Of a DNA stretch of 52,593 bases, positions 3,205 through 30,658 are shown in pieces. Origin of the DNA: a virus (lineage: Duplodnaviria > Caudoviricetes); the IMG/VR virus record IMGVR_UViG_3300050119_000254, positions 1-52,593 of that record. One strand, 5' to 3'. Position numbers and translations under genes: made by a program. The notes beneath the pieces were generated by a model. The model ran no database searches, was not told where the DNA came from, and was given only the letters and a program-made list of their open reading frames with translations. Positions within the stretch are counted from its first letter, which is position 1. The number at the start of each line of letters is the position of its first letter.

Positions 3205-3221
3205 TCTGCTAAGTATTGGCG

Positions 3222-5552
3222 ATGAACGTCGCCCACTATTACGCGCCCAGAATTCGCCGCCGTGCACGGGACCGGAGGATCGCTGATCAAAAGGAAGCTG
3301 TTCAGGAGGTTCAAGCGGAGGAGTCGCTGATCATTCAACCGGAGTGGCAGTTCTTTGTTCACGGCAAACCGGCCACAATTCAGATCAACGAGAGCTACCA
3401 AGTAGCCGGTAGGCAGCTACCGACGATGTTGGGCGAGTGCTCGATGCCGGTCGCCGTCGTCCTGCAACGATTCGGTGACTTGTCCGGCCAGCTACCATGG
3501 TTGAATGAAGAGGTGTCTAGCTGGGTGCGCGAGTCAAGCATGCAGGTATACTTGAATCCGGACCATCCAGATCATATCTGGGCGATGGAGAGCTTGCACG
3601 ACTGCCTGATCCAACATGGGTGGACTAACACTGTGCAAGAAAGCTTCAAATGGAGAAGCTTCAAATGGAGATTGGACGAGCCTGCCGATGATTATTATTA
3701 CTGTAACTATAAGCAATATATTGTCACCGTGTGCAAGTCCAGAGTATGTGATAGGTGGATATTGTGTGTAAGTTTATGTGATCGTCGTTGTACGCGGATA
3801 AGCCCCACAATCGTGGATGACTTGGTTTTCGACACTTTAGAGGACGCGCAACAGTCAGCCGAGGCAACCATTTTAGCGGATGAGTCAGACCGGCGCGATG
3901 CACGTAAGATATCCACCGATCAAGCTGATCTTCCGGAGTCGTTGCAGGAGGCGCGCTGGGCCAGCATGGGACGCAGTTGGACAACGCAGATAGGTAATTG
4001 TGGCCTTTGGGTTAGTCCTGCGGACAGTTTATCACGCGCCGGTGAAGAAGGAGCGAAAGGCTGGCGCTGGACCTTATATCAAGGGCATGATCATCGGTGG
4101 ACTGACGACGCACGAACTGGCATTGAACCGACTGTTGATCAAGCTAAGGAAGCCGCCGTTATGGCGTATCGTCAGATGGGTCAGGACGCCACTTCACGCC
4201 TCGATCTTCTGGAAGCTGTGCAGCTATCGTGGAGGAAGGAAGATGATGAATGGAGAGGCTTCAACAGCCGGTACACCGCCTACATCAGGAAAATTGATGG
4301 AGGCTACATCGACCATCCCGGCATGCAGTGGAAATGGTCACTATTTCGCGCCAGAATCGAAACGTTGATCGAGCAGAACTTTGCTAGAACTTTTGATGAT
4401 GCTAAGGCCGCCGTGATGGCGTCGATCAACGCTGATGCATGGGTGCGCAGCCCTAATCATCCTGATATTGATGATCTTCCGGAATCCACTAGCTGGAACT
4501 GGCTCGGCTTCTCCGATGCTGGATTTTGTGGACACGATAAGAGGTTCAAGTTTATAGCTTATGTGGACCAGGTTATCGGCACAAGCCACCCGGAGTTCGG
4601 AAGATGGAAGTGGTCTGCCAGCTCCCATGACGAGTCGATGTTTGGGGAGGGATATTGTGATAACAGTAGGGAAGCTAAAAAAGCGGTGGAAGCATTTGTT
4701 CGAGATTGTTCGAAGAGTGGAGGGGATCTTGACCTTCCGGAGTCGCAGCAGCCCATCCAGGCGCTCAGCGAGGTATCTTTCCGCCGTCTCATGCAATATA
4801 CGCAGGCCAATGGGCGATATAAGGCGGGCGGAATGCGCCGCGTGGCTGGGAAGTGGATTTACGACCCCACCGTGGCGGGCCGGATCGAGAATTCCCGGTT
4901 CGTCCTGACCAATCCGCCGCGCATCAGGATCGATACTGACGGCTACGCGATCATCAATTACTCGTTCAAGTCCCGATCCGACCGATGCACCTCCGGATTA
5001 AGAGCGCGCGGTTACGTCAAGTTCATCACCGGCGACAAGCGCGCTAAATATCAATTCGGCCAGAAGGTAATGGTGGGCTGCAGCTGTGCCGATTTTAAAT
5101 ATCGTCAGGCATTCGTGCTATCGAAGATGGGGGCGTCACATACTCCTACTGGGGCTGGAGGCGAAGCTACCAACACTCCACCGGTGATCACGAACCCACA
5201 TATGCTACCGTCACTGTGCAAGCACGGCGTCGCGGTAGCTGCTTTTGTGACGAAGAATGTGAAGGATTTTGAGCAGCAAGTTCGGGATATGAAGCGCCAG
5301 TCGAAGGTTGAACCTATTGCTCCCGGTAAGTCTCCAATCGTGAAACCTGATGATAAGGTCAGCAAACCGGAAATTACTCCAAAGCCTAGCAAGCCTAAAG
5401 ACAAGAACAAGAAACCGTTGAACGTGCCGGACGTTGATAAGAAGGTCATGGATCGCAAGGCAAGAGAGGCGGCGGAGCCGCCCGGTGGCGAGGAGTCAGA
5501 GGCCACCCCACGGGATAAAGATAGAGACGGACAAAGCGATAGCGGTCGGTAA
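3222..5552 (+). CDS. modular DLPES polyprotein: four Trp-rich modules, SWIM-like Zn finger, Lys/Pro tail
   Basis: DLPES x3 plus DLLEA; CSCADF...LCKH motif; CTAAGTA 6 nt before ATG. Confidence 0.75.
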   Translation: MNVAHYYAPRIRRRARDRRIADQKEAVQEVQAEESLIIQPEWQFFVHGKPATIQINESYQVAGRQLPTMLGECSMPVAVVLQRFGDLSGQLPWLNEEVSSWVRESSMQVYLNPDHPDHIWAMESLHDCLIQHGWTNTVQESFKWRSFKWRLDEPADDYYYCNYKQYIVTVCKSRVCDRWILCVSLCDRRCTRISPTIVDDLVFDTLEDAQQSAEATILADESDRRDARKISTDQADLPESLQEARWASMGRSWTTQIGNCGLWVSPADSLSRAGEEGAKGWRWTLYQGHDHRWTDDARTGIEPTVDQAKEAAVMAYRQMGQDATSRLDLLEAVQLSWRKEDDEWRGFNSRYTAYIRKIDGGYIDHPGMQWKWSLFRARIETLIEQNFARTFDDAKAAVMASINADAWVRSPNHPDIDDLPESTSWNWLGFSDAGFCGHDKRFKFIAYVDQVIGTSHPEFGRWKWSASSHDESMFGEGYCDNSREAKKAVEAFVRDCSKSGGDLDLPESQQPIQALSEVSFRRLMQYTQANGRYKAGGMRRVAGKWIYDPTVAGRIENSRFVLTNPPRIRIDTDGYAIINYSFKSRSDRCTSGLRARGYVKFITGDKRAKYQFGQKVMVGCSCADFKYRQAFVLSKMGASHTPTGAGGEATNTPPVITNPHMLPSLCKHGVAVAAFVTKNVKDFEQQVRDMKRQSKVEPIAPGKSPIVKPDDKVSKPEITPKPSKPKDKNKKPLNVPDVDKKVMDRKAREAAEPPGGEESEATPRDKDRDGQSDSGR

Positions 5553-5565
5553 CATTCATTCCGTC

Positions 5566-7071
5566 ATGTTGGTGTTACCTCGAAACTGCACGGTGTGCAA
5601 ACTTTCATTTATGCCGTCAGGTCCAAGAGCTGGCGCACTGAAACGGTGCGACAGTTGCCGGACATATTCAAAGAGAAAGTGGCAGGAGAATGGCGACAAA
5701 TATAAGTGTCGCAACAATTTGGAGCGCGCGGAGCATAGCAGATTGAGAATGGTAAGGGCTAGAATACGAAATGAGCAGTTGCTTCTCGCAACATATGGGG
5801 TCGACGGCAGTTATGTGTGCCCATGCGGTTTCAGATCTCCGATCAAGCGCCAGTTTTCGTTTCATCATGTTGACCCGTCAATTAAAACGTGTGAGATCAC
5901 GCGTAAATTGCGTGCATTGAGCTTCAGCATAGACCTACTCGAATCCGAGGGCGTCATAATGAAGTGTGAGAACTGCCACCGAGTGGAACACGGTAACGGC
6001 GGGGCAAAGAGGACTATGTGGAAGCGCCTTCAAGACGCTGGGGTAGATCTAATATGCTGCATGTGCGAGGGCAGATTCGACCCGTGCGTTTACGACTTCC
6101 ACCATCTGGGCAACAAGCGTTTCAACGTCAGTCAGACTAATTGGAAGCTTGATAATATGTTACCAGAGCTGCGGAAATGCGTGATCGTGTGTGCCAGGTG
6201 CCATCGAGCCATCGATGCTGGAGTGCCTTGCCCATCAACGTTGACCGTAGGACAGCAGATCGATCAGCGACGAGTTGTATGCCATCAACGCAAGGTTCGC
6301 AACGCTGATGAACCAGCCAGCAGGTTGACGCATCCGCAGCTATTTGATAGGCCATTGGGTGACTTCATGCTGCAAAAGGAGCCTTATTCGACAGAGCTTA
6401 AGGAGTTCATCGAGCGCCGCGATTGGACCCAGCGAGTGGGCAACACCCCAAGATGGTGCTTCACAGCCCGGATTGATGGTGTGTTAGCCGGTGTCATCAT
6501 GATTGGTCAACCGCCCGGCCACACGACTTTGTTCAAGAACGACGCGGATTATCACGACGCCCAAGCCGTTATTCAGCGTGGGGCGTCCGCGTCGTTTGGT
6601 CACCGTAATCTCGGCTCCAAGCTGATCATGTGGTCGATTCGTTGGATGGTAAGGAACACCGAGAAGCGCACGTTTGTCGGATACGCGGACCCGGAAGCTG
6701 GTGAGCGTGGTCGAATCTATGCGGCTTGCAACTTCCGACACATCATTGGAGATTTCGGAGCTAAAATTTGCCTTCAACACCCAGACGTGAATGATGGTCA
6801 ACCATTCTCGCCATCATACTTGTACCACTGGCGGCGGATTAAGGAACATCTGATGCATTTGAGACTATGGAAAACCGAGTATTCGGTTGGTGGCGTCCCG
6901 AAGTCTCTGATGGAGCGCTGTCATCGACACAACAAACGGATTATGCATCAAGCCACAAGGGTTCGCACATCCTCGAAGAGGAAGTGGGTGCTGGTGGCGG
7001 CGCCCAACAAGCGTGAACTAAAGCGTCTGCAAAGCGAGCTGCTAGCATTGCGTCAAGATACCGTCCCGTAA
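5566..7071 (+). CDS. tandem HNH endonuclease domains fused to a Mom-like (GNAT) DNA-modification domain
   Basis: FHHVDP..CENCHR and DFHH..CARCHR; C-terminal WCFTAR..QRGAS..YADPEAGERGRIYAACNF. Confidence 0.75.
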   Translation: MLVLPRNCTVCKLSFMPSGPRAGALKRCDSCRTYSKRKWQENGDKYKCRNNLERAEHSRLRMVRARIRNEQLLLATYGVDGSYVCPCGFRSPIKRQFSFHHVDPSIKTCEITRKLRALSFSIDLLESEGVIMKCENCHRVEHGNGGAKRTMWKRLQDAGVDLICCMCEGRFDPCVYDFHHLGNKRFNVSQTNWKLDNMLPELRKCVIVCARCHRAIDAGVPCPSTLTVGQQIDQRRVVCHQRKVRNADEPASRLTHPQLFDRPLGDFMLQKEPYSTELKEFIERRDWTQRVGNTPRWCFTARIDGVLAGVIMIGQPPGHTTLFKNDADYHDAQAVIQRGASASFGHRNLGSKLIMWSIRWMVRNTEKRTFVGYADPEAGERGRIYAACNFRHIIGDFGAKICLQHPDVNDGQPFSPSYLYHWRRIKEHLMHLRLWKTEYSVGGVPKSLMERCHRHNKRIMHQATRVRTSSKRKWVLVAAPNKRELKRLQSELLALRQDTVP

Positions 7072-7659
7072 CCAGCCGTGCCAACCGCCTCGGCTATGGA
7101 GGATTGATGGTGTGACGGTAATCCGGGGTGGCGTTCCGGTGACCTGCCATCCCTGGCCTTTTGATGAGGTCGTGTCCATGTCCCATACTCCTCCAGGCGT
7201 TCGGCAGAATAAGTGTGGGAACGGACCAAGTTGGTCTCCGATATGACGTTGCAACAGGTAGATGGAGTCTGGCCCGTGACCCCACGGTTGTTCCCAGATT
7301 GAACCGACCGGCAACCTCATGAGAGCGACTGGCTCCGAGGCCAGATCTGAAGCGTCCCGATATAGCCAGTCGGTGTGGACCTGCCACTCATCGGAGTCAC
7401 TAAACGGTGTGCCGCAGTGTTCGCAAGCTTTGGGCCATCTGGGGTCGTTATGGTCCCACTCGTAGTGGCGGATTAAGACAATGCCATCGATTGGTTCCGG
7501 CACGATGTCGTCCAAATGCTGTTGGGCGTCGCAATATAAAGTATATCCGAGCCTATCAGGAGACTTCGGACATTTACGAGTATCCGATGACACGTAGCGG
7601 CGCAGATAGCGACGGATCTGGCCGGTTGCCACGTAATATCGGCAAGTGATGGGTTCCAT
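7042..7659 (-). CDS. hypothetical protein with DUF6527-like C-terminus
   Basis: CEHC motif; ends PRITVTPSIL..WHGWLRDG. Confidence 0.6.
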   Translation of the reverse strand: MEPITCRYYVATGQIRRYLRRYVSSDTRKCPKSPDRLGYTLYCDAQQHLDDIVPEPIDGIVLIRHYEWDHNDPRWPKACEHCGTPFSDSDEWQVHTDWLYRDASDLASEPVALMRLPVGSIWEQPWGHGPDSIYLLQRHIGDQLGPFPHLFCRTPGGVWDMDTTSSKGQGWQVTGTPPRITVTPSILHSRGGWHGWLRDGILTQC

Positions 7660-7675
7660 CACTAGATATAGGGCG

Positions 7676-8281
7676 ATGTTGCACGCCACACAGCCTTCAC
7701 TTCAATCGTTTCGCGACGCCTTCTGCCTCGGTGATCCATTGAGCTCCAATCTTTGGGCAGCATGCCGATGGCGCAAGGAGCCCAACGCCACGGCCTGCAA
7801 CTATACGGTTGTGATCTTCAATCTGTCCAACACTCTGAAGGCGCAATTCAAGCTGCAGAGTTCGCAAATTCCCTACGGGGACGAGGATAATATCGCCGAC
7901 ATCTCAATTCCAGTTGAATCCGTCAACGACACTTCATCTCCCAACGCTGTCACCTGGGCATGGCAGAAAGGATTGTTCAACAGTTCGTTCATCGATCTGC
8001 CCGTATACGTCAACGACAGTCTCAACACGACCGTCGACCTGTCGATCGTTCCGGGTGGACAAATCTCAATCAGCTTCACTAGCAACGCTCCGTTCATTCA
8101 GTGGGTGCCGCTGGCTAATTCAGGAGCGCGGTTGCAAGTGATCGCGGGCACGACCCAGCCGATCGCGGTCTGGAGTCATGAGGAAGTTCATCCGATGCCA
8201 CAAGATGCCAATGGTGGGTCGTTCCCGCTGGTGGGAATCTCGGTCTCGGAAGGCAATTCTGGCAACATGGACGACGCCTAA
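7676..8281 (+). CDS. hypothetical protein, possibly virion
   Basis: ORF with CTAGATA motif upstream. Confidence 0.6.
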   Translation: MLHATQPSLQSFRDAFCLGDPLSSNLWAACRWRKEPNATACNYTVVIFNLSNTLKAQFKLQSSQIPYGDEDNIADISIPVESVNDTSSPNAVTWAWQKGLFNSSFIDLPVYVNDSLNTTVDLSIVPGGQISISFTSNAPFIQWVPLANSGARLQVIAGTTQPIAVWSHEEVHPMPQDANGGSFPLVGISVSEGNSGNMDDA

Positions 8282-8291
8282 GAGATCTAAG

Positions 8292-9974
8292 ATGCGACCA
8301 TTCCCACATTGCAGCAGAGCGGTTGAGCTTCATTTCAAGCGTCGGAAAGTGATCGAGCGCGTCCGGCCAGCTATTCCGATTCCATCTGTGCATCTGACAT
8401 TGATGGAAGCTGATCTTGACCTTCCGACGTCTCCCCCAGATCAACCGCCAGCCCGCCCTATGTCGCCAAGCGATGGAGGCGATGGAGTCGGACAAATCAT
8501 CCGCCAATATAACACGATCTGGCTGTCGGCTAAAGAATATTTTGACGGCAAGGTCGATGATCTTGTTCATCTGCCCGCCGAGTCCAAGGACAAACTTTTG
8601 GCGCAGGCCGCGTCCGGGCTGATCGCCCAATATGAGCTCGACCCGTCCAAGGAGCCGAGCCGCGACCATATTCGTGACACCGCGCTGATGCTGGCCGACA
8701 AGATCGACGACCTTTACCAGGATCGTGGACCGGACGAGCAGAAGGAATATGCCAACCGGCTCGCCCAAGGGTTGCGGGAATTTCACAACCAGGTCGATCC
8801 AGGGAGCGAGGAGCCCGATGATGAACCAACCGACGACGCTCCCGAGAAGCCTGCCAAGCCCAAGGTATCCAAGGAACCCAAGCACGACTTCGACCGCGAC
8901 ATGGCTAGGGAGCTGCCGAACCGCCATCAAGGCGTGACGAGGCGGCGTCCGCAGGAATCAATTGACGAATCATTGAAGAGTAACTGCGCCGCAAATGGTG
9001 TGGACGTTGGGTTCTTGAATCAGTTAACCAGCGCCGTGTATCCGAGGGCGGGTAGACTTAATAGTCGCGTCTTTAATAAGCTGTTTAACGCCTACGCTGA
9101 AAGGATTGCCGGATGTTTTGCGCCAGAAGATAGTGAGGATACGTTGAAGCATCAATGTTTCGATTATTTACCGTTTTACCGTAAGGAAATTCGAGATAAC
9201 GACATTGCGTTGGGCGTAGCGCTAGCGATTGGGGATGATAAGGAAGATCAGGACGAAGTGTTGAGCATGTTGCGTGGAAGAAGTCCATGCAAGACCCTCA
9301 TCAACAGACTCCGGAAAATCTTGATCGTTGGGCTTGTATCGACGCCATCCGGCACGTCACCCAAGACGTTGATGGTGGCACGGGTTGGTGACTATGAAGG
9401 TATAATTCGCCAGCTTGATGCGCATTCAGTGAAGGACGGTGAAGAAGCTGGTCAATGGCGTTGGATAGTTATTAGTGAGAACGATTTCGACTTTGAACAG
9501 CGCGGCGTTGTCGATACCATGGATCAAGCTAAGGAGGCGGCGGAGGCGACCATTCGTCAGCACAATGCAAAATCCGGCAACAGCGCAGACCTGCCGGAAT
9601 CGATGGTAGATCGGCTGCTGGAGACCGACCCCACGTTGAGCATGAACTTTGTCCATTGCCCGGAGTGCGGGCTCAAGTGCCGCCGCTCCAATGGGAAGTG
9701 CTTGTGCAACCATTGTGGTCATCGATTCAATCACGTGATCGATGATGATCTTCCCGAGTCCACCCATTCGCGCAATGCCTTGGCGCCAGTTAAGGACGCA
9801 CTGATCGCTTACATCAAGCAGCACCCATATTCGGCGTTCACTCCTGAGAGCTTGGCGCACGCTACTGACCAGGACATCATCATGGTGCTGAGCGCGCTGC
9901 GATCATTGAAGCGCGAGGGAGCATTGCGAGTCCAGAAGCGCACTCGTCGCAATCTCTACGAGCTTCCATTATGA
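8292..9974 (+). CDS. modular DLPES polyprotein (acidic helical part, Trp-rich module, Zn ribbon, winged-HTH-like module)
   Basis: DLPESMVDRLLE, CPECG..CNHC, DLPES, then an HTH-like tail. Confidence 0.7.
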   Translation: MRPFPHCSRAVELHFKRRKVIERVRPAIPIPSVHLTLMEADLDLPTSPPDQPPARPMSPSDGGDGVGQIIRQYNTIWLSAKEYFDGKVDDLVHLPAESKDKLLAQAASGLIAQYELDPSKEPSRDHIRDTALMLADKIDDLYQDRGPDEQKEYANRLAQGLREFHNQVDPGSEEPDDEPTDDAPEKPAKPKVSKEPKHDFDRDMARELPNRHQGVTRRRPQESIDESLKSNCAANGVDVGFLNQLTSAVYPRAGRLNSRVFNKLFNAYAERIAGCFAPEDSEDTLKHQCFDYLPFYRKEIRDNDIALGVALAIGDDKEDQDEVLSMLRGRSPCKTLINRLRKILIVGLVSTPSGTSPKTLMVARVGDYEGIIRQLDAHSVKDGEEAGQWRWIVISENDFDFEQRGVVDTMDQAKEAAEATIRQHNAKSGNSADLPESMVDRLLETDPTLSMNFVHCPECGLKCRRSNGKCLCNHCGHRFNHVIDDDLPESTHSRNALAPVKDALIAYIKQHPYSAFTPESLAHATDQDIIMVLSALRSLKREGALRVQKRTRRNLYELPL

Positions 9975-10234
9975 CTGCCATGAGATATCTTGTTAACCTT
10001 TTTCTGATCTTCGTCGCGATCGTTTTGACGAGCTTGCGCATTAACTGGTGCCCGCATTTCGATCACTCGTGGCCAATTGTGTTCATGGCGGCGTCGCACG
10101 TCTTTGTCGGCGTCTGCGTCACCATGATGTTCTGGCCGAAGCTGCAACGCCATGAGCGTTTCTTCTACGCTCTGCTTTGGCTCGTGCCCGGATTGATCGA
10201 ATTTTGGGCGTTCAAGACCCTCCGACTTCCTTAA
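9971..10234 (+). CDS. small membrane protein
   Basis: three hydrophobic segments. Confidence 0.6.
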   Translation: MTAMRYLVNLFLIFVAIVLTSLRINWCPHFDHSWPIVFMAASHVFVGVCVTMMFWPKLQRHERFFYALLWLVPGLIEFWAFKTLRLP

Positions 10235-10236
10235 CG

Positions 10237-10707
10237 ATGATTACGCAATTACACCTATTGGGCTCCCTTCATGGTCGGTTTACCGAATCGCGACTGACCG
10301 CGATGGGGTTTCAGAAGCCAGTGATCCGCCGCGCCATCACGATCGGGTTGATGGAGACCAGTGGGGGCATCGTATCTAGCATCCCTCCAAGATTGCGAGC
10401 GGCCAAGTTGAAATTCGCGGGCGTCAGTGAGGATATGGGAACGTCAGACCTTCAGCCCGGCGCCACCGTGCAACGGGTTGTTGATGGCGTCATTAAGACG
10501 TTTCAAGTCGTCCGGCAGGAAGGTGGCGACTTGGTGCTGATCGACCCTGAAAACACTGGAGCAGGAGAGCAGCGGTGCACCCGTTCTGACATCTCGCCAG
10601 TGATTTCTGATCCGAACGAACCTGGGGATCCACCGACGCCAGATAGCTCCAATCAACCTAAGACGGCATTATCCGACCCCAAGCCTGGCCGGATGCCATA
10701 CGCTTAA
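10237..10707 (+). CDS. hypothetical protein
   Basis: ORF in operon context. Confidence 0.6.
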   Translation: MITQLHLLGSLHGRFTESRLTAMGFQKPVIRRAITIGLMETSGGIVSSIPPRLRAAKLKFAGVSEDMGTSDLQPGATVQRVVDGVIKTFQVVRQEGGDLVLIDPENTGAGEQRCTRSDISPVISDPNEPGDPPTPDSSNQPKTALSDPKPGRMPYA

Positions 10708-10711
10708 TCCC

Positions 10712-10978
10712 ATGTTACCAGGAGATCAAATCATTCAAGCATCAGCCAGCTTCGGCGGGCGCGGGTTCTCAGCTATTTCGGACACCGACGTGCATGGGGG
10801 ATCATATTACGCAATCAAAGCGGTTGGCGGCGATGTGGTGATCGATTCCGCCGTGTTACCTGCCAACTGTGACGGCAGCATCGACGGATGGACAATCAGC
10901 AATGGCGACTGCATCCTGGCCCCAAGCATCGCTGACTTGCAACTGTCGAGCGGTAAGGCTTTAGCGTACAAGCTATGA
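10712..10978 (+). CDS. small putative virion protein
   Basis: 88 aa; ATGA-coupled to the downstream fibre-like gene. Confidence 0.55.
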   Translation: MLPGDQIIQASASFGGRGFSAISDTDVHGGSYYAIKAVGGDVVIDSAVLPANCDGSIDGWTISNGDCILAPSIADLQLSSGKALAYKL

Positions 10979-12666
10979 TAGGAATGGGTATAGGTGTGGG
11001 CTTTGGCGGTAAAGTGTCTTCTGCAGCGCCGCCGCCGACTAATCCAGTTTCCGGCTCAATACTTTACCAGCTTCCCGACGTTCTATCATCTGGATTGGTT
11101 TCCTCGTATCTAGATCAAAGCAGTAGCGGTAATACAGGCACGGCATCCGGCGGCCAGAGGCCAACGGCGAACCTTCTGGATCTCAATGGAAAGACGACCG
11201 TTTCTTTCAACGGCTCAAATTATCTCACCCTCACGGACGAAATAAATCTCACAGAGGGAACCGTTCATTGCTTCGTCAATACCCTCTCGTCGGAAGCCTC
11301 TGCGGTTTTTGGCTATGGAGGCGAGCCTGGACCTTACTGGTTTTTGTTGTTCATGACGGATGGGAATATTTATATCGGAAATGGTGTGACGCAGAACACA
11401 TGGCAATATACGGCTACGGGTGAATGGTTGATTGTGACTGTCGTTGCAACGACGACGCAGCAAAACATCTTCATCAACGGTGTGTATCTTGGACCGGGAA
11501 CTCAGGCATCTAACCCAATGGGCGGGATCGCAAGCATATTTGATATAGGTTACGGGAACACCAGATTCTTCACCGGGAAGATGGGAATCAACCTATTTTA
11601 CAATACCCCGCTTTCGAACGCTGATCGACAGACGAACGAAGCTTTCTATTCTGGATATTACGCGCAGACGCTAGGGAATCAATGCTTAGCTACAGGGAAC
11701 TCTCTCGTGTTTGGCGTCAATTCCACTGGCAATCAAAATTTCCCTGACATCGCCAGTATCGCGCTCGGTTCAAGCTGGGTTAAAATTGCCAACCTTGGAA
11801 TCGCTGGCGAGACGACTCCGCAGATGATCACTGCTGCCCCAACGACAATCGATCCATTTTCTAATACCACACTGAGAAACAATATTTGTCTCGCGTGGGA
11901 ACTTATTAACGACGCGGTGGCCAATGTAAGTCAACCCGATCAAGTAGCTAATGTTGTCGGGCACATGGTCACTTACGGCACAGCGCGAAAGGCTGCCGGG
12001 TTCAAGGTGATTGTCGGTACGATGCTCTCGCAGGGTTATAATACCAATGTCACGGACACGATTCGAGGTGAGATCAATGCCGGGATACTAGATCCCACTC
12101 AAATCGGAGTTGCATGGGACGATGTCGCAGATATGTCGTGGAACCCAAATGTTGGAGGCAATGGCGCGTGGGAGAATACGAACTACTTCAGTTCCGTGGA
12201 CAAGATCCACATGACGAACTACGGCTACCAGTGCGCGGCGGTAATCTGGGGTTACTACGTGTCGAAGAACGCGATTCTGCCAGCCGCGTCCGAAAAGACG
12301 CTCATCGACTTCAACGGGCTGACTGTGTCAAGCTTCACCACAGGAGCGGCGGGAGACGCGATTGTTTTGCTTTCAAACGCCAGTCAACACTACTTTTGGT
12401 TCCAGACGGGAACTGAGCATGATCCAGGACTCACGGGAACTGGCGTGGAAGTGAGTCTTGTCGGTCTGACGACCGCTGCGCAAATCGCAGGCGCGATGGC
12501 AGCCACCATTCAAGGGTCGCTTTCTGGGCAATGGGCGGCTACGAACGTCAATGGTTCGGGAACGTTGACAGCGGTGCAAACGATAGATGTTGGGACTGGA
12601 AGCCACAAGCCAGCTTTTGCTTACAATTTTGGACCCGTGGTTTCAATTCTCAAGTACGGGCATTAA
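10975..12666 (+). CDS. LamG/ConA-like plus SGNH hydrolase protein (putative virion appendage/esterase)
   Basis: SFNGSNYL..IFINGV..YNTPLS LamG pattern; SGNH blocks GNSL, NLGIAG, ELIND, DKIH. Confidence 0.75.
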   Translation: MIGMGIGVGFGGKVSSAAPPPTNPVSGSILYQLPDVLSSGLVSSYLDQSSSGNTGTASGGQRPTANLLDLNGKTTVSFNGSNYLTLTDEINLTEGTVHCFVNTLSSEASAVFGYGGEPGPYWFLLFMTDGNIYIGNGVTQNTWQYTATGEWLIVTVVATTTQQNIFINGVYLGPGTQASNPMGGIASIFDIGYGNTRFFTGKMGINLFYNTPLSNADRQTNEAFYSGYYAQTLGNQCLATGNSLVFGVNSTGNQNFPDIASIALGSSWVKIANLGIAGETTPQMITAAPTTIDPFSNTTLRNNICLAWELINDAVANVSQPDQVANVVGHMVTYGTARKAAGFKVIVGTMLSQGYNTNVTDTIRGEINAGILDPTQIGVAWDDVADMSWNPNVGGNGAWENTNYFSSVDKIHMTNYGYQCAAVIWGYYVSKNAILPAASEKTLIDFNGLTVSSFTTGAAGDAIVLLSNASQHYFWFQTGTEHDPGLTGTGVEVSLVGLTTAAQIAGAMAATIQGSLSGQWAATNVNGSGTLTAVQTIDVGTGSHKPAFAYNFGPVVSILKYGH

Positions 12667-12690
12667 ACGCGATGCGCTCTAGTTATCGGA

Positions 12691-13431
12691 ATGGCACTTC
12701 CGATTTCCACTTGCTACGAAGGCGACAATTATCAGTTTCTAGCTCGGACCAGGGCGTTCATCACGGCGCTACCCGACATTTTCGAGCGTCTGCATGATCT
12801 CGATTTGGATCATTCCTATCGTGGGATGCAGAAGCTGAGGTTTGTGGAGCAGCTGGAGCTCGGGGCCGGGACGACCCATTTTTATAATGCCAAGAAGGAT
12901 ATGTTGTCAGTGTTCCCGATGGCGTTTAGCGCCGGTGGGCGGATCGATCTTACCCTCTACGAAGGGCTGGGACAGCGCCATTGGCAGACCGGGATGTCGT
13001 CGGCCCACAAGGTGACGTGGGCGAGGTGTCTGGTTAAGGCCGACCAGCACGTCGTGGACCGGATTGATGAAGCGCTCGCCAGCGCTGATGACGGTCAGTT
13101 TCTCGACATCGTCGGTCTCTTCCACTCGGCGACCGAGAAGCTGCAGGCCATCCATATCGTCAACGCGATGGTGCGCAACTCGATGTCGATCACCCAGTTC
13201 GCCAACATGAGCGTGCGTGACTACCCGGCCACCAAAGATTTCTGCGCTGGCGACCGGCCCTACTCACTGATCCCACTGCTGAGCGCTTACGCAGCCCGTT
13301 GCGTCCGCCGGTATCCGGAAGCCTTCGCTCAGTATTGTGCGCGCTCAGGCCACCTTCCAGTTTCCGAGACGTCAACGGAGGCCGCGTTCGTGAGGCTGTT
13401 CAAATCGGTGACGCTGAGCGACCATGCGTAA
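12691..13431 (+). CDS. hypothetical protein
   Basis: 246 aa ORF; CTAGTTA 5 nt before ATG. Confidence 0.65.
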   Translation: MALPISTCYEGDNYQFLARTRAFITALPDIFERLHDLDLDHSYRGMQKLRFVEQLELGAGTTHFYNAKKDMLSVFPMAFSAGGRIDLTLYEGLGQRHWQTGMSSAHKVTWARCLVKADQHVVDRIDEALASADDGQFLDIVGLFHSATEKLQAIHIVNAMVRNSMSITQFANMSVRDYPATKDFCAGDRPYSLIPLLSAYAARCVRRYPEAFAQYCARSGHLPVSETSTEAAFVRLFKSVTLSDHA

Positions 13432-14434
13432 GCTGAGATGGCGAAAGAACAGTAACGGTGGACTATGGACTGATTGGGCAACGGACAGATATCGTCGAAC
13501 CACAGAGTCCGATTACATATTTGTCATATCGAGAGACAACGCGGGGTGGTTGTGGCGTTGTTACAACGTTGTTGACGATACCATATTTTTCGGTACGGTG
13601 ACGATGCGCATTGCAGCGATCGAACAAGGCGAGAAGATGGCCGCACAGACGATTGGAGACAGCGATCAAGACCTCCCTGAGTCGCTGTTGGAAGCCAACG
13701 AATATCACGACGCTAGTGACCCCAAGTCGTTGACGCGCGCCACGGTTGGGTACGGTAACCGTCTTTTCAAGATCGAGCTCGGAATATATGGTAATGAGTT
13801 TCTGGTGGCGGGAGACTGTGCTGGTGATGCGATGGATGCGCTAATTGACTGGCTGGATGGTCATAACTCTCCGTGGGTGATGACGCCAGAACAAGAGGCA
13901 TCGCTCGATGACTGTGAGGGTGAGCACTATCTCAGTGGTGGTAATTACGGGAAACACTTGGATTGCGGTGCTGAGGAAGTATGGATTACACAGGTCCCGG
14001 CTAAGGATGCTTTCCTGACCCGTGAGGAACAGCGCGCGATCGCAAGGGCGAAAGCTGCGGAGCTCGATCTCCCAGAGTCATCGAAATGGTCCAAAAACTG
14101 GCTGTTCGATCTTGTCTATCGCAGCCTCGATGGCGTTAATCGAGAGTTATTAGCTGCTCGAATATCCGAGCAAGCTAAGTGGATCATTATTGCCGGGAAA
14201 GTGACAGGTAAAGGTTCCTTGCAAAACACAGTGGATCGAGACATTGGTTACCAACGAGCGGCTGAATGGGCGGGCCGCGATTGGGGTCGCATCATTACTA
14301 GGCTACAAGGATTGCGTGACGGTCGCAATTATCGTCCGGTCAGAATCGACCTCACGCCCGGTGTGGACTGGATGTCGGGAGGCCCGCAAGACCTTCCGGA
14401 ATCATTAGCTGACCAACTATTGGGGGCCAAATGA
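13424..14434 (+). CDS. three-module DLPES polyprotein with DLPESLADQLLG tail
   Basis: DLPES at 13670, 14066, 14390. Confidence 0.75.
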   Translation: MRKLRWRKNSNGGLWTDWATDRYRRTTESDYIFVISRDNAGWLWRCYNVVDDTIFFGTVTMRIAAIEQGEKMAAQTIGDSDQDLPESLLEANEYHDASDPKSLTRATVGYGNRLFKIELGIYGNEFLVAGDCAGDAMDALIDWLDGHNSPWVMTPEQEASLDDCEGEHYLSGGNYGKHLDCGAEEVWITQVPAKDAFLTREEQRAIARAKAAELDLPESSKWSKNWLFDLVYRSLDGVNRELLAARISEQAKWIIIAGKVTGKGSLQNTVDRDIGYQRAAEWAGRDWGRIITRLQGLRDGRNYRPVRIDLTPGVDWMSGGPQDLPESLADQLLGAK

Positions 14435-14778
14435 GCAGCGCCATCATCAGATTCCTGACGCAAAGGTCATCCATCCAGACCCGCAACCACCGCGACATCC
14501 TGGACCTGACCGGCACAGTGCCGCCGTCTACTCCACCGCCTCCGGGACCGCGACAGGTGTTGCTCACTCATTCACCGGGTCAGATCGACGTTCGAATCCT
14601 CTATCCGGACGGCCAATCTGAGATGATGTACCATGGTCCGGACCTGTTCCTGAAGCTCACCCAGAGAGGCTTACCTGCTTACAAGCTGGAGCGAGTCATC
14701 GATCATCTTTGGAACTTTTATCAAGTTTATGTGGACTGTGACGAGGAGCCGAGGCCACCAAAAATTCAGCTCGAATGA
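14431..14778 (+). CDS. hypothetical protein
   Basis: ATGA-coupled ORF. Confidence 0.65.
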   Translation: MSSAIIRFLTQRSSIQTRNHRDILDLTGTVPPSTPPPPGPRQVLLTHSPGQIDVRILYPDGQSEMMYHGPDLFLKLTQRGLPAYKLERVIDHLWNFYQVYVDCDEEPRPPKIQLE

Positions 14779-16043
14779 GAAACTGGCAAATCAACAGATT
14801 TGGTGAGTGGAAGTATCATTCGTCGAGCGGCATCCATCGCCAGTACCATGTTCACATATGGCGCGAAAAACAGTGGGTGTGGGAGGCGTCCCACAAAGTC
14901 GATAATTGTCACCATGTGATTGGTAGAGGACATTCAACTAACGTTGAGCTGGCTGCCCAAGAGGCTGAGAAATCGATCCGGACGCACGCTGCCACGCTTC
15001 AAGTGGATCAGGATCTTCCGGAATCTATGGGCGGTGAGGTGGTTCTTAAACCCGGTGACGTTATCTTGGTGCGAGGGATCTCCAGAACATATCGCGAGGT
15101 AGTCGATCATTGCGCCCATGATTTGGGAACCGTATACGCGCGCTGCACCGGGATAAGGGACCCTCGGTTACATGGTGGAGCATGGCCAATAAGCCAAGTG
15201 ATCGCTGTCAAGATCGACGGTCAGATGCGGCCCGTTAAATATGACGAAGATACTAGTAAGTTTTGGTGGATCGACAACGATCTTCCGGAGTCCACAACGT
15301 CATTGAATTGGAAGGAAGACCCAGATGGCGCGTGGAGCGCTCGCCTTGGCACCAAATACGAGGCAGCTATCAGGAAGAAATCTGACAAATGGGTGTGGGA
15401 TGTGACCTACAATCTTGGAATGTTTAGCTGTGAGCAATGTGGATACGGGGCGGAAGACACTATTGAACAAGCCAAGATGAAAGCTGCTGATACGATTCGC
15501 GGTGAAATTTCAAGCCGCCGCAGTGTCAGTCAAGATCTTCCAGAGTCCGCGCCGGAATGGGTGGACATGACCATCACCTCCCTGAACGTTGACGCTGACG
15601 GTAAATATCTTGGATTTTATCGAGGCGAGTTTACGTGGCCGCGTAATATTGGCAATCTGATCATTAAGGTCCCATCGATAACGTTTGACGGAGACATTTG
15701 GGTGGAGGGTGACATCGTGGCGGATGGTGACGTCAATGTGGCGGATAATGAGATCTCGGCAGGCGGCAACATCCTAGTGAAGGGCGACATCGTGGCGGGC
15801 GGCATCATAGCGAACGGCAACGTCTGGGCGAACGGCAAAATCGTAGTGGATGGTGGTAACATCAGCGTGGGAAAGGGAGGTAGCGTCCGATCACCACACA
15901 TCACGGCGTTACGCGTTTATACAAATTATGACCGACACGACGTCGTTGATGGTCAGATCGTGCGGAGATCTGGCGCTAGGACTGGACAAAAGTCTAGGGG
16001 CCAAGATCTTCCGGAATCATTGGCTGACCGGTTGCTCGGTTAA
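14775..16043 (+). CDS. four-module DLPES polyprotein (two Trp-rich, one SH3-like, one bactofilin-like beta-helix) with DLPESLADRLLG tail
   Basis: DLPES x4; GDI.V.G repeats in the last module. Confidence 0.75.
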   Translation: MRNWQINRFGEWKYHSSSGIHRQYHVHIWREKQWVWEASHKVDNCHHVIGRGHSTNVELAAQEAEKSIRTHAATLQVDQDLPESMGGEVVLKPGDVILVRGISRTYREVVDHCAHDLGTVYARCTGIRDPRLHGGAWPISQVIAVKIDGQMRPVKYDEDTSKFWWIDNDLPESTTSLNWKEDPDGAWSARLGTKYEAAIRKKSDKWVWDVTYNLGMFSCEQCGYGAEDTIEQAKMKAADTIRGEISSRRSVSQDLPESAPEWVDMTITSLNVDADGKYLGFYRGEFTWPRNIGNLIIKVPSITFDGDIWVEGDIVADGDVNVADNEISAGGNILVKGDIVAGGIIANGNVWANGKIVVDGGNISVGKGGSVRSPHITALRVYTNYDRHDVVDGQIVRRSGARTGQKSRGQDLPESLADRLLG

Positions 16044-16119: not shown

Positions 16120-18054
16120 ATGAAACCAGCAAAGCCTGCAGGATGGCAACCGTTGATTGAAGAGAAAATTTTTCGCCCCATTGGGGAGCCCGTGTTGGTG
16201 GAGTCCGCCGAGCTAGGTCGCAAGGTCTTGCGGCAGCATGGCGTCATCCAATCGTACACCCAGCGCAACCAGAATGGTCGGCTCTATCCGAAGAAGCTTT
16301 GGGAGGCGCTATTCAAGCCGGACAGCGACTTCATGGAACGGCTCCAGAGTCGCGCCATGGTCGGGCTTCTGGAGCATCCGGAGGACGGGATCACCAGGCT
16401 CGACCGAAGTCCTAGCCATCTGATGACGGAAGTCCATTTTGCCTCGCCCAAGGAGATCACGGAATCCCGCAAGTCCGACCCCAAGCACCCGTTGGAGGAA
16501 GGCGACATCATTGGGACGCTCGAAGTGATCGAAGGGACCCGTAACGGCGATGAGCTCAAGGCGCTCATCGAAGCCAAGGTTCAAATCGGCGTCAGTTCAC
16601 GAGGCGGCGGAACGCTCAAGGAGGATGGGGAGGGCCACACCGTCAACGAGGATTATGAATGCGAGACCTGGGACGTCGTGCAGTCGCCATCCGTCAGCCG
16701 CGCCATCCCGCGCAAGACCGAGGTCACTCATGAATCGGCTCCGGTCCCTCCCGTCCCACCAGTCGTGGAAGCTGTTCCGCCAACTCCTGCCCCGGTCGTG
16801 GAGTCCAAGGTTCCGGTCGCTCCAGTGGTCAAGCTTTTCTGCGAGAACGGCGCCGTCCGTTACGAGATCGTCGAGGATGCCACCGGCTCCCATGTCTACG
16901 ACCGCAAGGATGAGAAAAATCTTCACGACTGCGCCACTCCGGAACTGGCTCACCAATGGGTCATGGAAAACCTTAAGGCATCCGCTCCCGCCCAAGCATT
17001 ACCGCTCGCGCCTGTCGTCAAGCCTTCCACGCCAGCTCCCTCGGTTCCACTTCAAGAATCAACCAACACCACTATTATGTCACATCGCGATAAGCTCCGC
17101 ACCCTCGACCTGGACGTCACCCGTCTCACTTCCACGCCCGTCAAGGGTTTGAAGCCATCGGCCAAGTCGTCCATGTTCGAATCTATCACCAGCCTCCGCG
17201 TCGAGATCGCGGGCGTCCTCAAGGAGGACTCGACCCTGCAGCCGATCGCCGACAAGCAGCTCAAAAGGCTCACCGAATACGAGGACGAGCTCGATGCCGA
17301 GCCGATTCCGGAGGGGCCTGTCTCCCACGAGGGTGACGGCGACTTCGAGGACTTTGATCACGCCGACGAAGGTGGTGGTGACGACGATGTGATGTGCCGG
17401 GCCGCCGCCAAGCTTCGGACCCTCGGTGACGAGGGGGATGAGGAAGCTGCCGGATTGGCCGATGAACTCGATGCCGTGTGCGGTGATGGTGATGAACCGC
17501 CCATGGATGACGTCCCACCGCCCGCCCCTGAGGGCGACGCTCCTCCGATGGAGTCGAAGCTCCGCAGCTTCATCAAGAGGATGAAGGGCAAGTACGTCAA
17601 GCTTGAGAGCGCTCATCGCCGCCTGACCGCCGCGACCGCCACGCTGTTGGAGCGCTACCGGACCGTCAAGAAGCACCTCACTGAGAACGGTGGGGGGCGT
17701 CCCGCCGACCAGCAGTCGATCGAGGAATATGAGAATGCTGCCCGCGACATTGCGGACCGCTATAACCGCCATATGATCGAGATGGGCAAACTGCTCATGC
17801 AGGCCAAGCAGCCTGGACTCTATGAGGCCAATGAGGACCGCTTCAAGCGCGTCCGCACCTGGAAGCAGTTCGGCGAGGTCTCCCAGCAGGTCGTGGCCAA
17901 GCGTCCGCTTCGCGAGGGCGTCCAGCCTCCGGTCAAGAAGCCAGCATCGAGCTCCTCCACCAATCCGCCGCCCGATCCGCCTCTCACGGAAACCGTCCAC
18001 CCGTCCGTCATGATGGCAACGCGCGCCCGCCACCGGTCCACCATTACGGGATAA
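16120..18054 (+). CDS. prohead protease (T4 gp21-like) fused to an acidic/coiled scaffold region
   Basis: NQNGRLYP, GLLEHP, GVSSRGGG, WDVVQSPS motifs; directly upstream of the capsid gene. Confidence 0.9.
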   Translation: MKPAKPAGWQPLIEEKIFRPIGEPVLVESAELGRKVLRQHGVIQSYTQRNQNGRLYPKKLWEALFKPDSDFMERLQSRAMVGLLEHPEDGITRLDRSPSHLMTEVHFASPKEITESRKSDPKHPLEEGDIIGTLEVIEGTRNGDELKALIEAKVQIGVSSRGGGTLKEDGEGHTVNEDYECETWDVVQSPSVSRAIPRKTEVTHESAPVPPVPPVVEAVPPTPAPVVESKVPVAPVVKLFCENGAVRYEIVEDATGSHVYDRKDEKNLHDCATPELAHQWVMENLKASAPAQALPLAPVVKPSTPAPSVPLQESTNTTIMSHRDKLRTLDLDVTRLTSTPVKGLKPSAKSSMFESITSLRVEIAGVLKEDSTLQPIADKQLKRLTEYEDELDAEPIPEGPVSHEGDGDFEDFDHADEGGGDDDVMCRAAAKLRTLGDEGDEEAAGLADELDAVCGDGDEPPMDDVPPPAPEGDAPPMESKLRSFIKRMKGKYVKLESAHRRLTAATATLLERYRTVKKHLTENGGGRPADQQSIEEYENAARDIADRYNRHMIEMGKLLMQAKQPGLYEANEDRFKRVRTWKQFGEVSQQVVAKRPLREGVQPPVKKPASSSSTNPPPDPPLTETVHPSVMMATRARHRSTITG

Positions 18055-30656: not shown

Positions 30657-30658
30657 GG

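What the first reader, a model, noticed from the sequence alone, without database searches (positions are those of the whole stretch)
3222..16043. DLPES-delimited polyproteins: candidate protease-released cargo cassettes next to the head genes
Seen: four large ORFs upstream of the prohead protease and capsid genes (3222, 8292, 13424, 14775) contain 12 exact DLPES motifs, and two more occur at 22637 and 38329(-). Each motif sits at a boundary between modules of mostly ~60-160 aa (Trp-rich, Zn ribbon, HTH-like, SH3-like, beta-helix, SWIM). Codons vary (GAT/GAC, CTT/CTC/CTG/TTG, CCG/CCC/CCT/CCA, GAA/GAG), so selection acts on the peptide. Known: T4 gp21 cleaves after Glu in [LI]-x-E and processes internal head proteins. 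Inference: LPE|S is a standardised cleavage linker, so the polyproteins are packaged and cut into many small ejected effectors. I do not know of a description of such a system.
Basis: partly seen in the sequence, partly recalled or inferred. Interest (0 to 1): 0.92.

Follow-up and report, generated by a model that had tools for sequence, protein, structure and literature searches.

The report
Phage cargo polyproteins with DLPES junctions
An uncultured T4-like phage joins small protein modules with an invariant Asp-Leu-Pro-Glu-Ser junction that fits the cutting rule of its own head protease, so the chains are probably cut into separate capsid-carried proteins, though no cut has been measured.

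Summary
Observation confirmed: 14 in-frame DLPES (0.07 expected by shuffling), 12 of them in four ORFs upstream of a gp21-type (S77) prohead protease and a gp23-type capsid gene. Best reading (0.6): DLPE|S is that protease's cleavage site. Support: [LIM]-x-E sites are conserved across relatives in the capsid propeptide and at the protease's own C-terminus, which reads D-L-x-E-S in 4 of 8. The matching linker of protein A reads DLEES or EMQES in relatives. Stand-alone homologues of modules start or stop within a few residues of a junction. A coupled mini-gene array ends DLPV*/DLPD*, and the next gene starts Met-Ser. A confident model of one module leaves DLPE in a floppy tail. A second viral contig (G001, T4-type portal) and two metagenomic proteins carry the same junction. 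Packaging, ejection and effector roles are only inferred. The polyproteins lack the N-terminal leader seen on six other ORFs, eight related contigs have no DLPES, and silent positions are biased (CTT, CCG), so the junction may also spread as DNA. This is a new variant of the T4 internal-protein and polyvalent-protein themes. Earlier unchecked notes of this scan describe similar systems with other junction peptides on other phage DNA.

The parts
3222..5552 (+). Polyprotein A (776 aa from the ATG at 3222): conserved N-domain with a Trp-rich module, DLPES, two Trp-rich modules split by DLLEA, DLPES, Trp-rich module, DLPES, conserved SWIM-like C-domain (A4)
   Evidence: the ends are homologous to single long proteins of L004/L005/L006, with the Trp-rich modules as inserts
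3927..3941 (+). DLPES junction 1 (A)
4203..4217 (+). Degenerate junction DLLEA between Trp-rich modules W2 and W3 of A
4473..4487 (+). DLPES junction 2 (A)
4731..4745 (+). DLPES junction 3 (A), in front of the conserved A4 domain; the homologous linker reads DLEES (L004) and EMQES (L005/L006)
8403..9974 (+). Polyprotein B (start uncertain: 8178, 8292 or 8403): conserved part with a Trp-rich module, DLPES followed by MVDRLL, Zn-ribbon-like 53-aa module, DLPES, 71-aa basic module
9588..9602 (+). DLPES junction 4 (B), the internal copy of the DLPES-[LM]xxRLL form
9747..9761 (+). DLPES junction 5 (B)
13424..14434 (+). Polyprotein C (336 aa), three modules plus tail; no homologue in relatives; overlaps the conserved genes on both sides
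13670..13684 (+). DLPES junction 6 (C)
14066..14080 (+). DLPES junction 7 (C)
14390..14404 (+). DLPES junction 8 (C), followed by the tail LADQLLGAK and stop
14775..16043 (+). Polyprotein D (422 aa): Trp-rich, SH3-like?, Trp-rich, beta-helix, tail; no homologue in relatives near the capsid gene
15012..15026 (+). DLPES junction 9 (D)
15279..15293 (+). DLPES junction 10 (D)
15534..15548 (+). DLPES junction 11 (D); a stand-alone G001 homologue of the next module starts 4 residues after it
16005..16019 (+). DLPES junction 12 (D), followed by the tail LADRLLG and stop
16120..18054 (+). Prohead protease (gp21/S77 type, residues about 1-205) fused to a scaffold-like region; H86, S159/S160 and D185 invariant; 16 [LIM]-x-E-small/acidic sites; conserved L-x-E at 26-28 and 622-624
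18103..19563 (+). Major capsid protein (Gp23 family); its N-terminal propeptide carries three [LIM]-x-E sites conserved across relatives
21371..22345 (+). Four overlapping or coupled mini-genes ending FDLPV*, DLDLP*, DLDLPV* and DEDLPD*. The first is a stand-alone Trp-rich module. Two of the three following genes start Met-Ser
22409..22675 (+). Small protein E (88 aa) ending DLPES-LADRLLG*
22637..22651 (+). DLPES junction 13 (E)
38305..38601 (-). Small protein F (98 aa) ending DLPES-LVNRLLN*, coupled to the 489-aa ORF downstream, in the replication gene block; homologous to a G001 gene with the same tail
38329..38343 (-). DLPES junction 14 (F)
29590..30904 (+). Context: three coupled genes with the N-terminal leader M-x-P-x-x-[FY]-x-x-L-L-E (2H/Acb1-like phosphoesterase, GNAT, small protein). 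Other leaders lie at 142, 46522 and, as a remnant, about 1070

Best explanation
DLPE|S is a cleavage site for the phage's own gp21-type prohead protease: Leu at P3, Glu at P1, Ser at P1'. Proteins A to D are made late, together with the head genes, as chains of small independently folding modules of 6-30 kDa. They are taken into the prohead and cut at each junction, leaving free small proteins inside the capsid, as T4 does with its internal proteins and Alt. On five proteins the site is followed by a short amphipathic stretch (S-L-x-[DN]-[RQ]-L-L). Four times this forms the C-terminus, so it would be removed like a C-terminal propeptide and may serve as the targeting or docking element. Shown here: the motif, its statistics, its position at module boundaries, the protease family, the clade's conserved [LIM]-x-E sites, and the same junction in other DNA. 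Inferred: the cut itself, the packaging, the ejection, and any effector role.
For: (1) There are 14 DLPES against 0.07 expected, all in frame in ORFs. (2) The protease belongs to S77/S80 and aligns with T4 gp21 5JBL; H86, S159/S160 and D185 are invariant in 8 of 8 aligned sequences. Proteases of this family cut after Glu; SPN3US gp245 cuts A-x-E with Ser preferred at P1' (passages of PMC10052503; PMC5694885). In the T4 CTS the processing determinants are residues 8 and 10, that is P3 and P1 (passage of PMC9026906). (3) Sites are conserved across relatives. In the capsid propeptide L-A-E is present in 7 of 8, [LI]-x-E-A in 8 of 8 and [LM]-x-E-small in 8 of 8. At the protease C-terminus [LI]-x-E-[STA] is present in 8 of 8 with an invariant Glu624, and 4 of 8 read D-L-x-E-S. 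DL.E[ST] occurs 9 times against about 1.3 expected in L004-L007. (4) The linker before the conserved A4 domain reads DLEES in L004 and EMQES in L005/L006, within 3 residues of the window's DLPES. (5) Independent genes mark the boundaries. The stand-alone Trp-rich gene stops at DLPV*. G001's 171-aa homologue of module D4 (36.5% over 178 aa, 1e-17) starts 4 residues after the junction. A4-only homologues exist: P0019 starts 10 residues after it, and P0018 has a 43-aa leader ending L-L-E. Coupled mini-genes end DLPV*, DLP* and DLPD*, and 2 of the 3 next genes start Met-Ser. (6) AF2 of module D3 with 9 paralogues gives pLDDT 88.5: five strands and a helix to residue 79, with the last block, which holds DLPE, at pLDDT 51. 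The 8 residues upstream of the sites are 71% polar against 58% in the background, p 0.0012. (7) The same junction occurs elsewhere. G001 has 13 pattern hits against 0 in the control, and a 722-aa chain with 5 DLPES lies between Baseplate_J and a T4-type portal. P0006 has 5 DLPE[SA] and P0016 has 4 [LP/LD]LPE[SA]. Across these lineages P3, P1 and P1' stay fixed while P4 varies. (8) C and D overlap conserved head-cluster genes on the same strand. Six other ORFs carry an 11-residue N-terminal leader ending L-[LIV]-E, like a T4 CTS.
Against: No cleavage, packaging or ejection was measured. None of the 8 related contigs that encode a homologous protease has a DLPES near the capsid gene, so the protease does not need this exact peptide, and the invariance of Asp (P4), Pro (P2) and Ser (P1') is unexplained. 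None of the clade-conserved sites has Pro at P2. A to D lack the N-terminal leader. Gene F lies among replication genes. Silent positions in the motif are biased (CTT 9 of 14, p 2e-5), which points to a DNA-level process as well. Only one module was modelled with confidence; the whole-D model is poor (pLDDT 41). Cutting the Trp-rich modules at the motif before aligning them makes that one boundary argument partly circular. G000 and G001 are both fragments and could belong to one lineage.
Confidence: 0.6

Rival explanations
1. The chains are cut at DLPE|S by the prohead protease, but the modules are not delivered effectors. They are core or scaffold filler or long propeptides, chopped so that they can be cleared or simply left inert, like T4 gp22/gp67/gp68 or the long propeptides of SPN3US.
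For: The protease-scaffold protein itself holds 16 [LIM]-x-E sites. SPN3US propeptides are cut at several sites to help clearance (passages of PMC5694885 and PMC10052503). Most modules have no recognisable enzymatic family. The most repeated module is a small, mostly acidic domain (pI about 5), unlike the basic T4 internal proteins (their basic character is recalled).
Against: The modules are folded domains of 6-30 kDa, not short peptides. Stand-alone genes for the same modules are kept. C and D are lineage-specific inserts absent from relatives, which is odd for an assembly scaffold. The top fold match of the Trp-rich module is a small inhibitory subunit (6d7k_H, Z 9.1, rmsd 1.9 A over 67 residues); immunity and anti-CRISPR proteins follow at Z 5-6, which is only a common arrangement.
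Confidence: 0.13
2. DLPES(-LxxRLL) is a short docking motif that binds a hub protein, such as a scaffold, portal, clamp or host factor, and is not cleaved.
For: Asp, Pro and Ser are invariant beyond what [LIM]-x-E cutting needs. Four proteins carry the extended form at their very C-terminus, one of them in the replication block. Stand-alone genes end in DLPx, as if the end itself were recognised. A relative uses LADRLL near an N-terminus (L008:3394).
Against: Nine of 14 sites lack the LxxRLL part. The residues kept across lineages are P3, P1 and P1', the cleavage determinants. The motif always lies between modules, up to four per chain, which suits separation better than docking. The split mini-genes reproduce the products that a cut would give.
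Confidence: 0.12
3. The junction is cut by a protease other than the prohead protease, from the host or from the unsequenced part of the phage genome.
For: Both records are fragments (G001 is estimated 31% complete). Relatives with a homologous protease lack DLPES. Pro at P2 is not seen in the conserved sites. Another metagenomic protein, P0012, uses a junction without Glu (RMLFNP four times, ending PRMMF*), so other junction codes exist.
Against: No other peptidase family was hit among the window ORFs scanned. The junction fits the S77 rule exactly. D-L-x-E-S is the protease's own C-terminal site in 4 of 8 relatives.
Confidence: 0.07
4. The repeat is primarily a DNA element, a recombination joint or protein-binding palindrome (CTTCCGGA, GANTC), and the peptide is incidental.
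For: CTT 9 of 14, CCG 10 of 14 and no AGY Ser. All 7 CTTCCGGA in the window lie in motifs. G001 shows CTT 7 of 12 against 15%.
Against: All 14 copies share one reading frame with their ORF and one peptide, while all 15-mers differ. The peptide is kept in proteins under 50% identical (P0006, P0013). There are no intergenic copies.
Confidence: 0.05

Closest known systems
T4 internal proteins IPI, IPII, IPIII and Alt: capsid targeting sequence plus gp21 processing (PMC9026906 and PMC5694885, passages read)
   Same: A gp21-type protease next to a gp23-type capsid gene; cutting after Glu with a hydrophobic P3; small proteins carried in the head; a removable targeting peptide. Alt is also trimmed at its C-terminus, a precedent for the DLPES-LADRLLG tail. 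Six other ORFs of this genome carry an 11-residue N-terminal leader ending L-[LIV]-E.
   Different: T4 cargo proteins are single proteins with one N-terminal CTS. Here up to five modules share one chain, the junction is an invariant pentapeptide, the chains have no N-terminal leader, and the putative signal is C-terminal.
Multiply cleaved head, inner-body and ejection proteins of phiKZ, 201phi2-1 and SPN3US (S80 proteases gp175 and gp245; PMC10052503 and PMC5694885, passages read)
   Same: A related protease (Pfam S80 hit 2e-6); many cuts per protein, all after Glu; Ser preferred at P1' in SPN3US; C-terminal self-processing of the protease.
   Different: Those motifs are loose (A/S/G-x-E), and most reported cuts remove or fragment N-terminal propeptides rather than separating a row of independent folded modules. 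No sequence homology of the substrates was found.
Polyvalent proteins of phages and conjugative elements (Iyer et al. 2017, PMC5512222; abstract and passages read)
   Same: Many unrelated domains in one polypeptide, encoded near virion genes and predicted to be packaged and delivered. The authors draw the analogy to viral polyproteins. G001 encodes a Kinase-PolyVal domain nearby.
   Different: In that class release is ascribed to embedded peptidase domains. Here no peptidase lies in the chains, the cutter would be the trans-acting head protease, the junction is standardised, and none of the catalogued polyvalent domains was hit in A to D.
Polyproteins of RNA viruses (analogy only)
   Same: One translation product with repeated consensus sites read by the virus's own protease.
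   Different: A different virus world, protease fold and purpose; here the chains would be virion cargo, not the replication machinery.

Membership tests
T4-type capsid-targeted, gp21-processed internal proteins | The phage encodes a gp21-type (S77) prohead protease with a His/Ser/Asp triad | tested here: met
   Pfam S77 8e-10 and S80 2e-6; phrog_207 2e-26; 5JBL 5e-5 with SSRG and WDVV aligned; H86, S159/S160 and D185 invariant in 8 of 8. The identity of the T4 triad residues is taken from a passage of PMC5694885.
T4-type capsid-targeted, gp21-processed internal proteins | A processing site with a hydrophobic P3 and Glu at P1 | tested here: met
   14 of 14 junctions have Leu at P3 and Glu at P1. 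This is a match of sequence only; the cut itself was not testable.
T4-type capsid-targeted, gp21-processed internal proteins | An N-terminal capsid targeting sequence of about 10 residues | tested here: not met
   A to F start without the leader. The leader M-x-P-x-x-[FY]-x-x-L-[LIV]-E is on six other ORFs. A C-terminal substitute (S-L-x-[DN]-[RQ]-L-L) is proposed, not shown.
T4-type capsid-targeted, gp21-processed internal proteins | Presence in the virion and delivery into the host | not testable with these tools
   Uncultured phage; no proteome.
Polyvalent proteins (Iyer et al. 2017) | Two to fifteen domains in one polypeptide of a phage, in a virion-gene context | tested here: met
   A has 5-6 modules, B 3, C 3 and D 4; they sit upstream of the protease and capsid genes on the same strand.
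Polyvalent proteins (Iyer et al. 2017) | Domains from the catalogued conflict repertoire, and an embedded peptidase for release | tested here: not met
   No such Pfam family in A to D at E 0.01, nor in 10 separate modules at E 1.
phiKZ-like (S80) processed head proteins | The motif S/A/G-x-E and homology to inner-body proteins | tested here: not met
   P3 is Leu in 14 of 14. PHROGs gave no inner-body family.
DUF1508 / YegP (for the Trp-rich module) | A match to the family profile | tested here: inconclusive
   The module profile reaches DUF1508-repeat proteins P0007-P0009 at whole-library E 9e-7 to 5e-5, of which P0007 and P0009 were confirmed as PF07411. Pfam does not hit the window's modules, and no YegP structure appeared among the rows listed.

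The most novel reading that the evidence does not exclude
DLPES is a dual-purpose standard junction. As a peptide it is the optimal site of the head protease, so any module placed between two junctions is loaded as part of a chain and released as a free protein with a uniform ...DLPE carboxyl end and a Ser amino end. The coupled mini-genes reproduce the same ends genetically (DLPV*/DLPD*, then Met-Ser). As DNA, its partly fixed 14-mer (GAY-CTT-CCG-GAR-TC) acts as a recombination joint at which modules are duplicated, swapped between chains or split into separate genes. Together this makes a plug-and-play cargo system, and the uniform DLPx end may itself be a retention or ejection tag.
Probability: 0.2. 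Interest if true: 0.85.

Novelty: new variant of a known kind. Interest (0 to 1): 0.66.

Why it matters
If the junction is cut as proposed, this phage lineage has turned the T4 way of loading proteins into the head into a modular format. Many small proteins would be made as one chain, loaded together and freed by the protease that matures the capsid. That would explain how T4-like phages can gain and lose injected proteins quickly. It would give a five-residue rule for predicting virion cargo from sequence alone in uncultured phages. It would also offer a natural design for loading several foreign proteins into T4-type capsids. Finally, it would make a specific prediction testable with recombinant proteins alone: the protease at 16120 cuts after Glu in DLPES.

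Tried and rejected
Chance was rejected.

A purely structural repeat belonging to the Trp-rich module was rejected. Seven of 14 junctions follow other module types, and other lineages keep the module but change or lack the junction: P0012 has RMLFNP, and P0015 and P0017 have no DLPE.

The pure DNA-element reading is judged unlikely (one frame, no intergenic copy) but is not excluded as a second layer.

Protein D has no homologue of similar length among 5.8 billion clusters (self only).

The single-sequence AF2 model of D was too poor to judge linkers (pLDDT 41); I use it only for secondary-structure hints.

Foldseek against the PDB gave no match at E 0.001 for the Trp-rich module. VIA-wide gave one outstanding row (6d7k_H) and otherwise common small alpha/beta arrangements.

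Complex prediction of the protease domain (residues 1-215, 8-row alignment) with the last 40 residues of D returned 'no answer' (ipSAE 0.00 in both runs, controls not run). This is neither for nor against binding.

P0006 was found in neither viral nor metagenome contigs. P0012 was found in neither viral nor genome contigs. P0013 was missed in metagenome contigs and found in viral contigs.

Pattern scans of viral contigs for the tail or for DQDLPESL found no further multi-copy record besides G001. The single hits in L011, L013 and L015 (a D-F-P-E-S word) and in L018, L019 and L021 (no motif was found in L020) look like chance.

The L003 and L008 homologues of A4 were left out of the linker comparison, because the ORF around the tblastn hit is only 50 codons there. 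L001 is the same contig as L002.

Supplementary files of the papers (for example Table S6 of PMC10052503) were not seen; they may list further cleavage sites that bear on P2 and P4 preferences.

The explicit T4 consensus 'L/I-x-E' and the basic nature of T4 internal proteins are recalled, not read here.

Full report
OBSERVATION. The window is the whole record held for this virus: 52,593 bp, one contig, 55% G+C. Six-frame translation gives 14 exact DLPES. One ends the 88-aa ORF 22409-22675 (E) and one ends the 98-aa ORF 38305-38601 on the minus strand (F). DLPES is the commonest pentapeptide in all six frames. 200 shuffles gave a mean of 0.07 and at most 2. Five copies have the longer form DLPES-[LM]-x-[DN]-[RQ]-L-L: four at C-termini (C, D, E, F) and one inside B. 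All 14 DNA 15-mers differ, but the silent positions are biased. CTT is used 9 of 14 times against 14% of Leu codons genome-wide (p 2e-5), CCG 10 of 14 against 39% (p 0.014), and AGY Ser 0 of 14 against 32% (p 0.004).

CONTEXT. The ORF at 16120-18054 is a gp21-type prohead protease fused to a long scaffold-like region. It hits Pfam Peptidase_S77 at 8e-10, S80 at 2e-6, phrog_207 at 2e-26 and the T4 gp21 structure 5JBL at 5e-5. The ORF at 18103-19563 is a Gp23-family capsid protein (2.5e-48). Elsewhere the record has RecA/UvsX-like, gp32-like, helicase, topoisomerase, RNA ligase, HNH, Mom-like and TnpB genes. No portal, terminase or tail set was found, so it is probably a fragment of a larger T4-like genome. 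Genes from 2210 to 19563 lie on one strand. C and D overlap their conserved neighbours.

WHAT THE PROTEASE OF THIS CLADE CUTS. Eight related viral contigs were fetched through the capsid protein: seven at 54-73% identity (L002-L008) and one distant at 30% (L009). Protease, capsid and junction alignments below use the window plus L002-L008. In the capsid N-terminal propeptide three sites are conserved: L-A-E in 7 of 8 sequences, [LI]-x-E-A in 8 of 8 and [LM]-x-E-[ATSN] in 8 of 8. In the protease alignment, His86, Ser159/160 and Asp185 are invariant. So are Leu26-x-Glu28 and Glu624, which is the P1 of an [LI]-x-E-[STA] site about 20 residues from the C-terminus. At that site 4 of 8 sequences read D-L-x-E-S: DLKES, DLAES twice and DLNES. 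C-terminal self-processing is known for gp21, gp175 and gp245, and all these enzymes cut after Glu. SPN3US gp245 prefers Ser at P1'. In the T4 targeting sequence the processing determinants are residues 8 and 10, that is P3 and P1 (passages read in PMC5694885, PMC10052503 and PMC9026906). DLPE|S therefore fits the family rule, and D-L-x-E-S is this clade's own recurrent site. DL.E[ST] occurs 9 times in L004-L007 against about 1.3 expected.

JUNCTIONS ARE MODULE BOUNDARIES. Nine Trp-rich modules align (A1). Seven junctions follow such a module and seven follow other modules. With the nine paralogues as its alignment, AF2 models module D3 at pLDDT 88.5: five strands and a helix ending at residue 79, with the last block, which holds DLPE, at pLDDT 51. 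The eight residues upstream of the sites are more polar than the background of the same proteins (0.71 against 0.58, p 0.0012). Evidence that does not depend on how I cut the modules is as follows.

(i) A free-standing Trp-rich gene (21371-21664) stops at F-D-L-P-V-stop.

(ii) It heads an array of four coupled mini-genes ending DLPV*, DLDLP*, DLDLPV* and DEDLPD*, and two of the three following genes start Met-Ser. After removal of the Met these genes would yield the same kinds of ends as a cut at DLPE|S.

(iii) Protein A's two ends are homologous to single long proteins of L004, L005 and L006. The Trp-rich modules are inserts, and the linker in front of the conserved C-domain reads DLEES (L004) and EMQES (L005/L006), within three residues of the window's DLPES.

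(iv) C-domain-only homologues exist: P0019 starts 10 residues after the junction, and P0018 has a 43-residue leader ending L-L-E.

(v) C and D have no homologue in the relatives. They sit between conserved genes as lineage-specific inserts.

THE SAME JUNCTION ELSEWHERE. A profile of the nine modules, searched against 1.84 billion representatives, found 17 proteins at E up to 0.001. Five are the window's own. Among the rest, P0006 has five DLPE[SA] between modules, and P0013 has three and ends DLPES-LLD. P0016 has four [LP/LD]-L-P-E-[SA]. P0012 has four RMLFNP junctions and ends PRMMF-stop. P0017 has I-x-E-[AT] between modules. P0007-P0009 are DUF1508-type repeat proteins, with P0007 and P0009 confirmed by Pfam.

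P0013 lies on a second viral contig, G001 (45,433 bp, estimated 31% complete). The junction pattern hits it 13 times, against 0 for the reversed control. DLPES is the commonest pentapeptide of locus L010, with 10 copies. A 722-aa chain with five DLPES and one DLPEV sits between a Baseplate_J gene and a T4-type portal (PF07230, 3e-23). G001 also has the tails (DLPES-LADRLL..., DLPES-LSDRLL...), genes ending DLPD* and DLPI*, and a 171-aa gene homologous to module D4 (36.5% over 178 aa, 1e-17) that starts four residues after D's third junction. Across these lineages P3, P1 and P1' are kept while P4 varies. That is the pattern expected of a cleavage site.

WHAT IS NOT SHOWN. Nothing here measures cleavage, packaging or ejection. 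None of the eight related contigs has a DLPES near the capsid gene, so the exact pentapeptide is not required by the protease family. The invariance of Asp, Pro and Ser is unexplained, and none of the conserved sites has Pro at P2. A to F lack the N-terminal leader M-x-P-x-x-[FY]-x-x-L-[LIV]-E. That leader marks six other ORFs, among them a 2H/Acb1-like phosphoesterase and a GNAT. F sits among replication genes. The codon bias suggests that the junction also propagates as DNA. Module functions are unknown. The Trp-rich module's best structural match is the small inhibitory subunit MmoD (6d7k_H, Z 9.1, rmsd 1.9 A over 67 residues), and the next rows (Z 5-6) are only common arrangements.

COMPARISON AND NOVELTY. 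The mechanism proposed is the T4 one: capsid-targeted proteins trimmed by gp21, and Alt trimmed at both ends. It also resembles the multi-site processing of phiKZ and SPN3US head proteins, and the idea of packaged multi-domain polyvalent proteins (PMC5512222). It differs in three ways: up to five or six independent modules per chain, one invariant junction peptide read in trans by the head protease, and genetic equivalents of the cut in split mini-genes. Four literature searches found no description of such standard-junction chains; the library lacks most subscription journals. Earlier unchecked notes of this scan report similar polyproteins with other junction peptides in other uncultured T4-like phages. 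This is therefore one more member of a class that the scan keeps meeting. It is distinguished here by the exact pentapeptide, the C-terminal tail and the DLPx-stop mini-genes.

VERDICT. The cleavage-junction reading is the best explanation, with confidence 0.6. The cargo and effector part is plausible but unproven. It is a new variant of a known kind, with interest 0.66.

Noticed in passing
window 21371-22345 (+): Four overlapping or coupled mini-genes end FDLPV*, DLDLP*, DLDLPV* and DEDLPD*. Three are paralogues (RGYRGR...VVDGQ.SH). Two of the three downstream genes begin Met-Ser. A remnant ...FDLPD* lies at about 22709-22729.
   Followed up: partly
window 142, 29590, 30132, 30659, 46522 (+); remnant about 1070-1126: Shared 11-residue N-terminal leader M-x-P-x-x-[FY]-x-x-L-[LIV]-E on otherwise unrelated ORFs, including a 2H/Acb1-like phosphoesterase (PF13563 7.5e-7, Acb1 2.7e-5) and a GNAT (3e-7). 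It looks like a T4-type capsid targeting sequence.
   Followed up: partly
all 14 DLPES sites of the window; G001 sites: Silent positions are biased: CTT 9 of 14 (genome 14%), CCG 10 of 14, no AGY Ser. All 7 CTTCCGGA of the window lie in motifs. G001 has CTT 7 of 12 against 15%. Cause unknown.
   Followed up: partly
L010 (G001) about 5638-5803 (+): Right after, and overlapping, the end of the T4-type portal gene, another frame reads ...MINIDQDLPES-LADRLLDIQ*. This is either a frameshifted portal C-terminus or a 20-codon mini-ORF made of the tail alone.
   Followed up: no
L010 (G001) 17945-18877 (+) and 15849-17522 (+): A Kinase-PolyVal domain protein (PF18762, 2e-27) and a 557-aa ORF with a weak intein-splicing hit (1e-4, below cut-off).
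   Followed up: no
protein P0012 (metagenome, 462 aa): Trp-rich modules separated four times by RMLFNP, with the protein ending PRMMF*. This is a second junction code without Glu; its genomic context could not be fetched.
   Followed up: partly
window 30990-32273 (+): TnpB/OrfB_IS605 gene (PF01385 7e-31, with TNB and HTH domains) inside the phage record.
   Followed up: no
window 5434-7071 (+): HNH endonuclease units fused to a Mom-like domain (phrog_2255 2e-18; PF25680 1.6e-6).
   Followed up: no
window 27512-28834 (-) and 22726-23787 (+): A DFP-like domain fused to a class II aldolase-like domain, and an RNA ligase with a PHA02142 OB domain.
   Followed up: no
whole window: GATC occurs 419 times against about 199 in shuffles, and TCCGGA 33 times against about 15.
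   Followed up: no
L008:3394 (+): A relative has LADRLL near the N-terminus of a 194-codon ORF (M-K-K-N-I-T-L-A-D-R-L-L-T-E). This is the same hexapeptide as the window's C-terminal tail, used at the other end.
   Followed up: no
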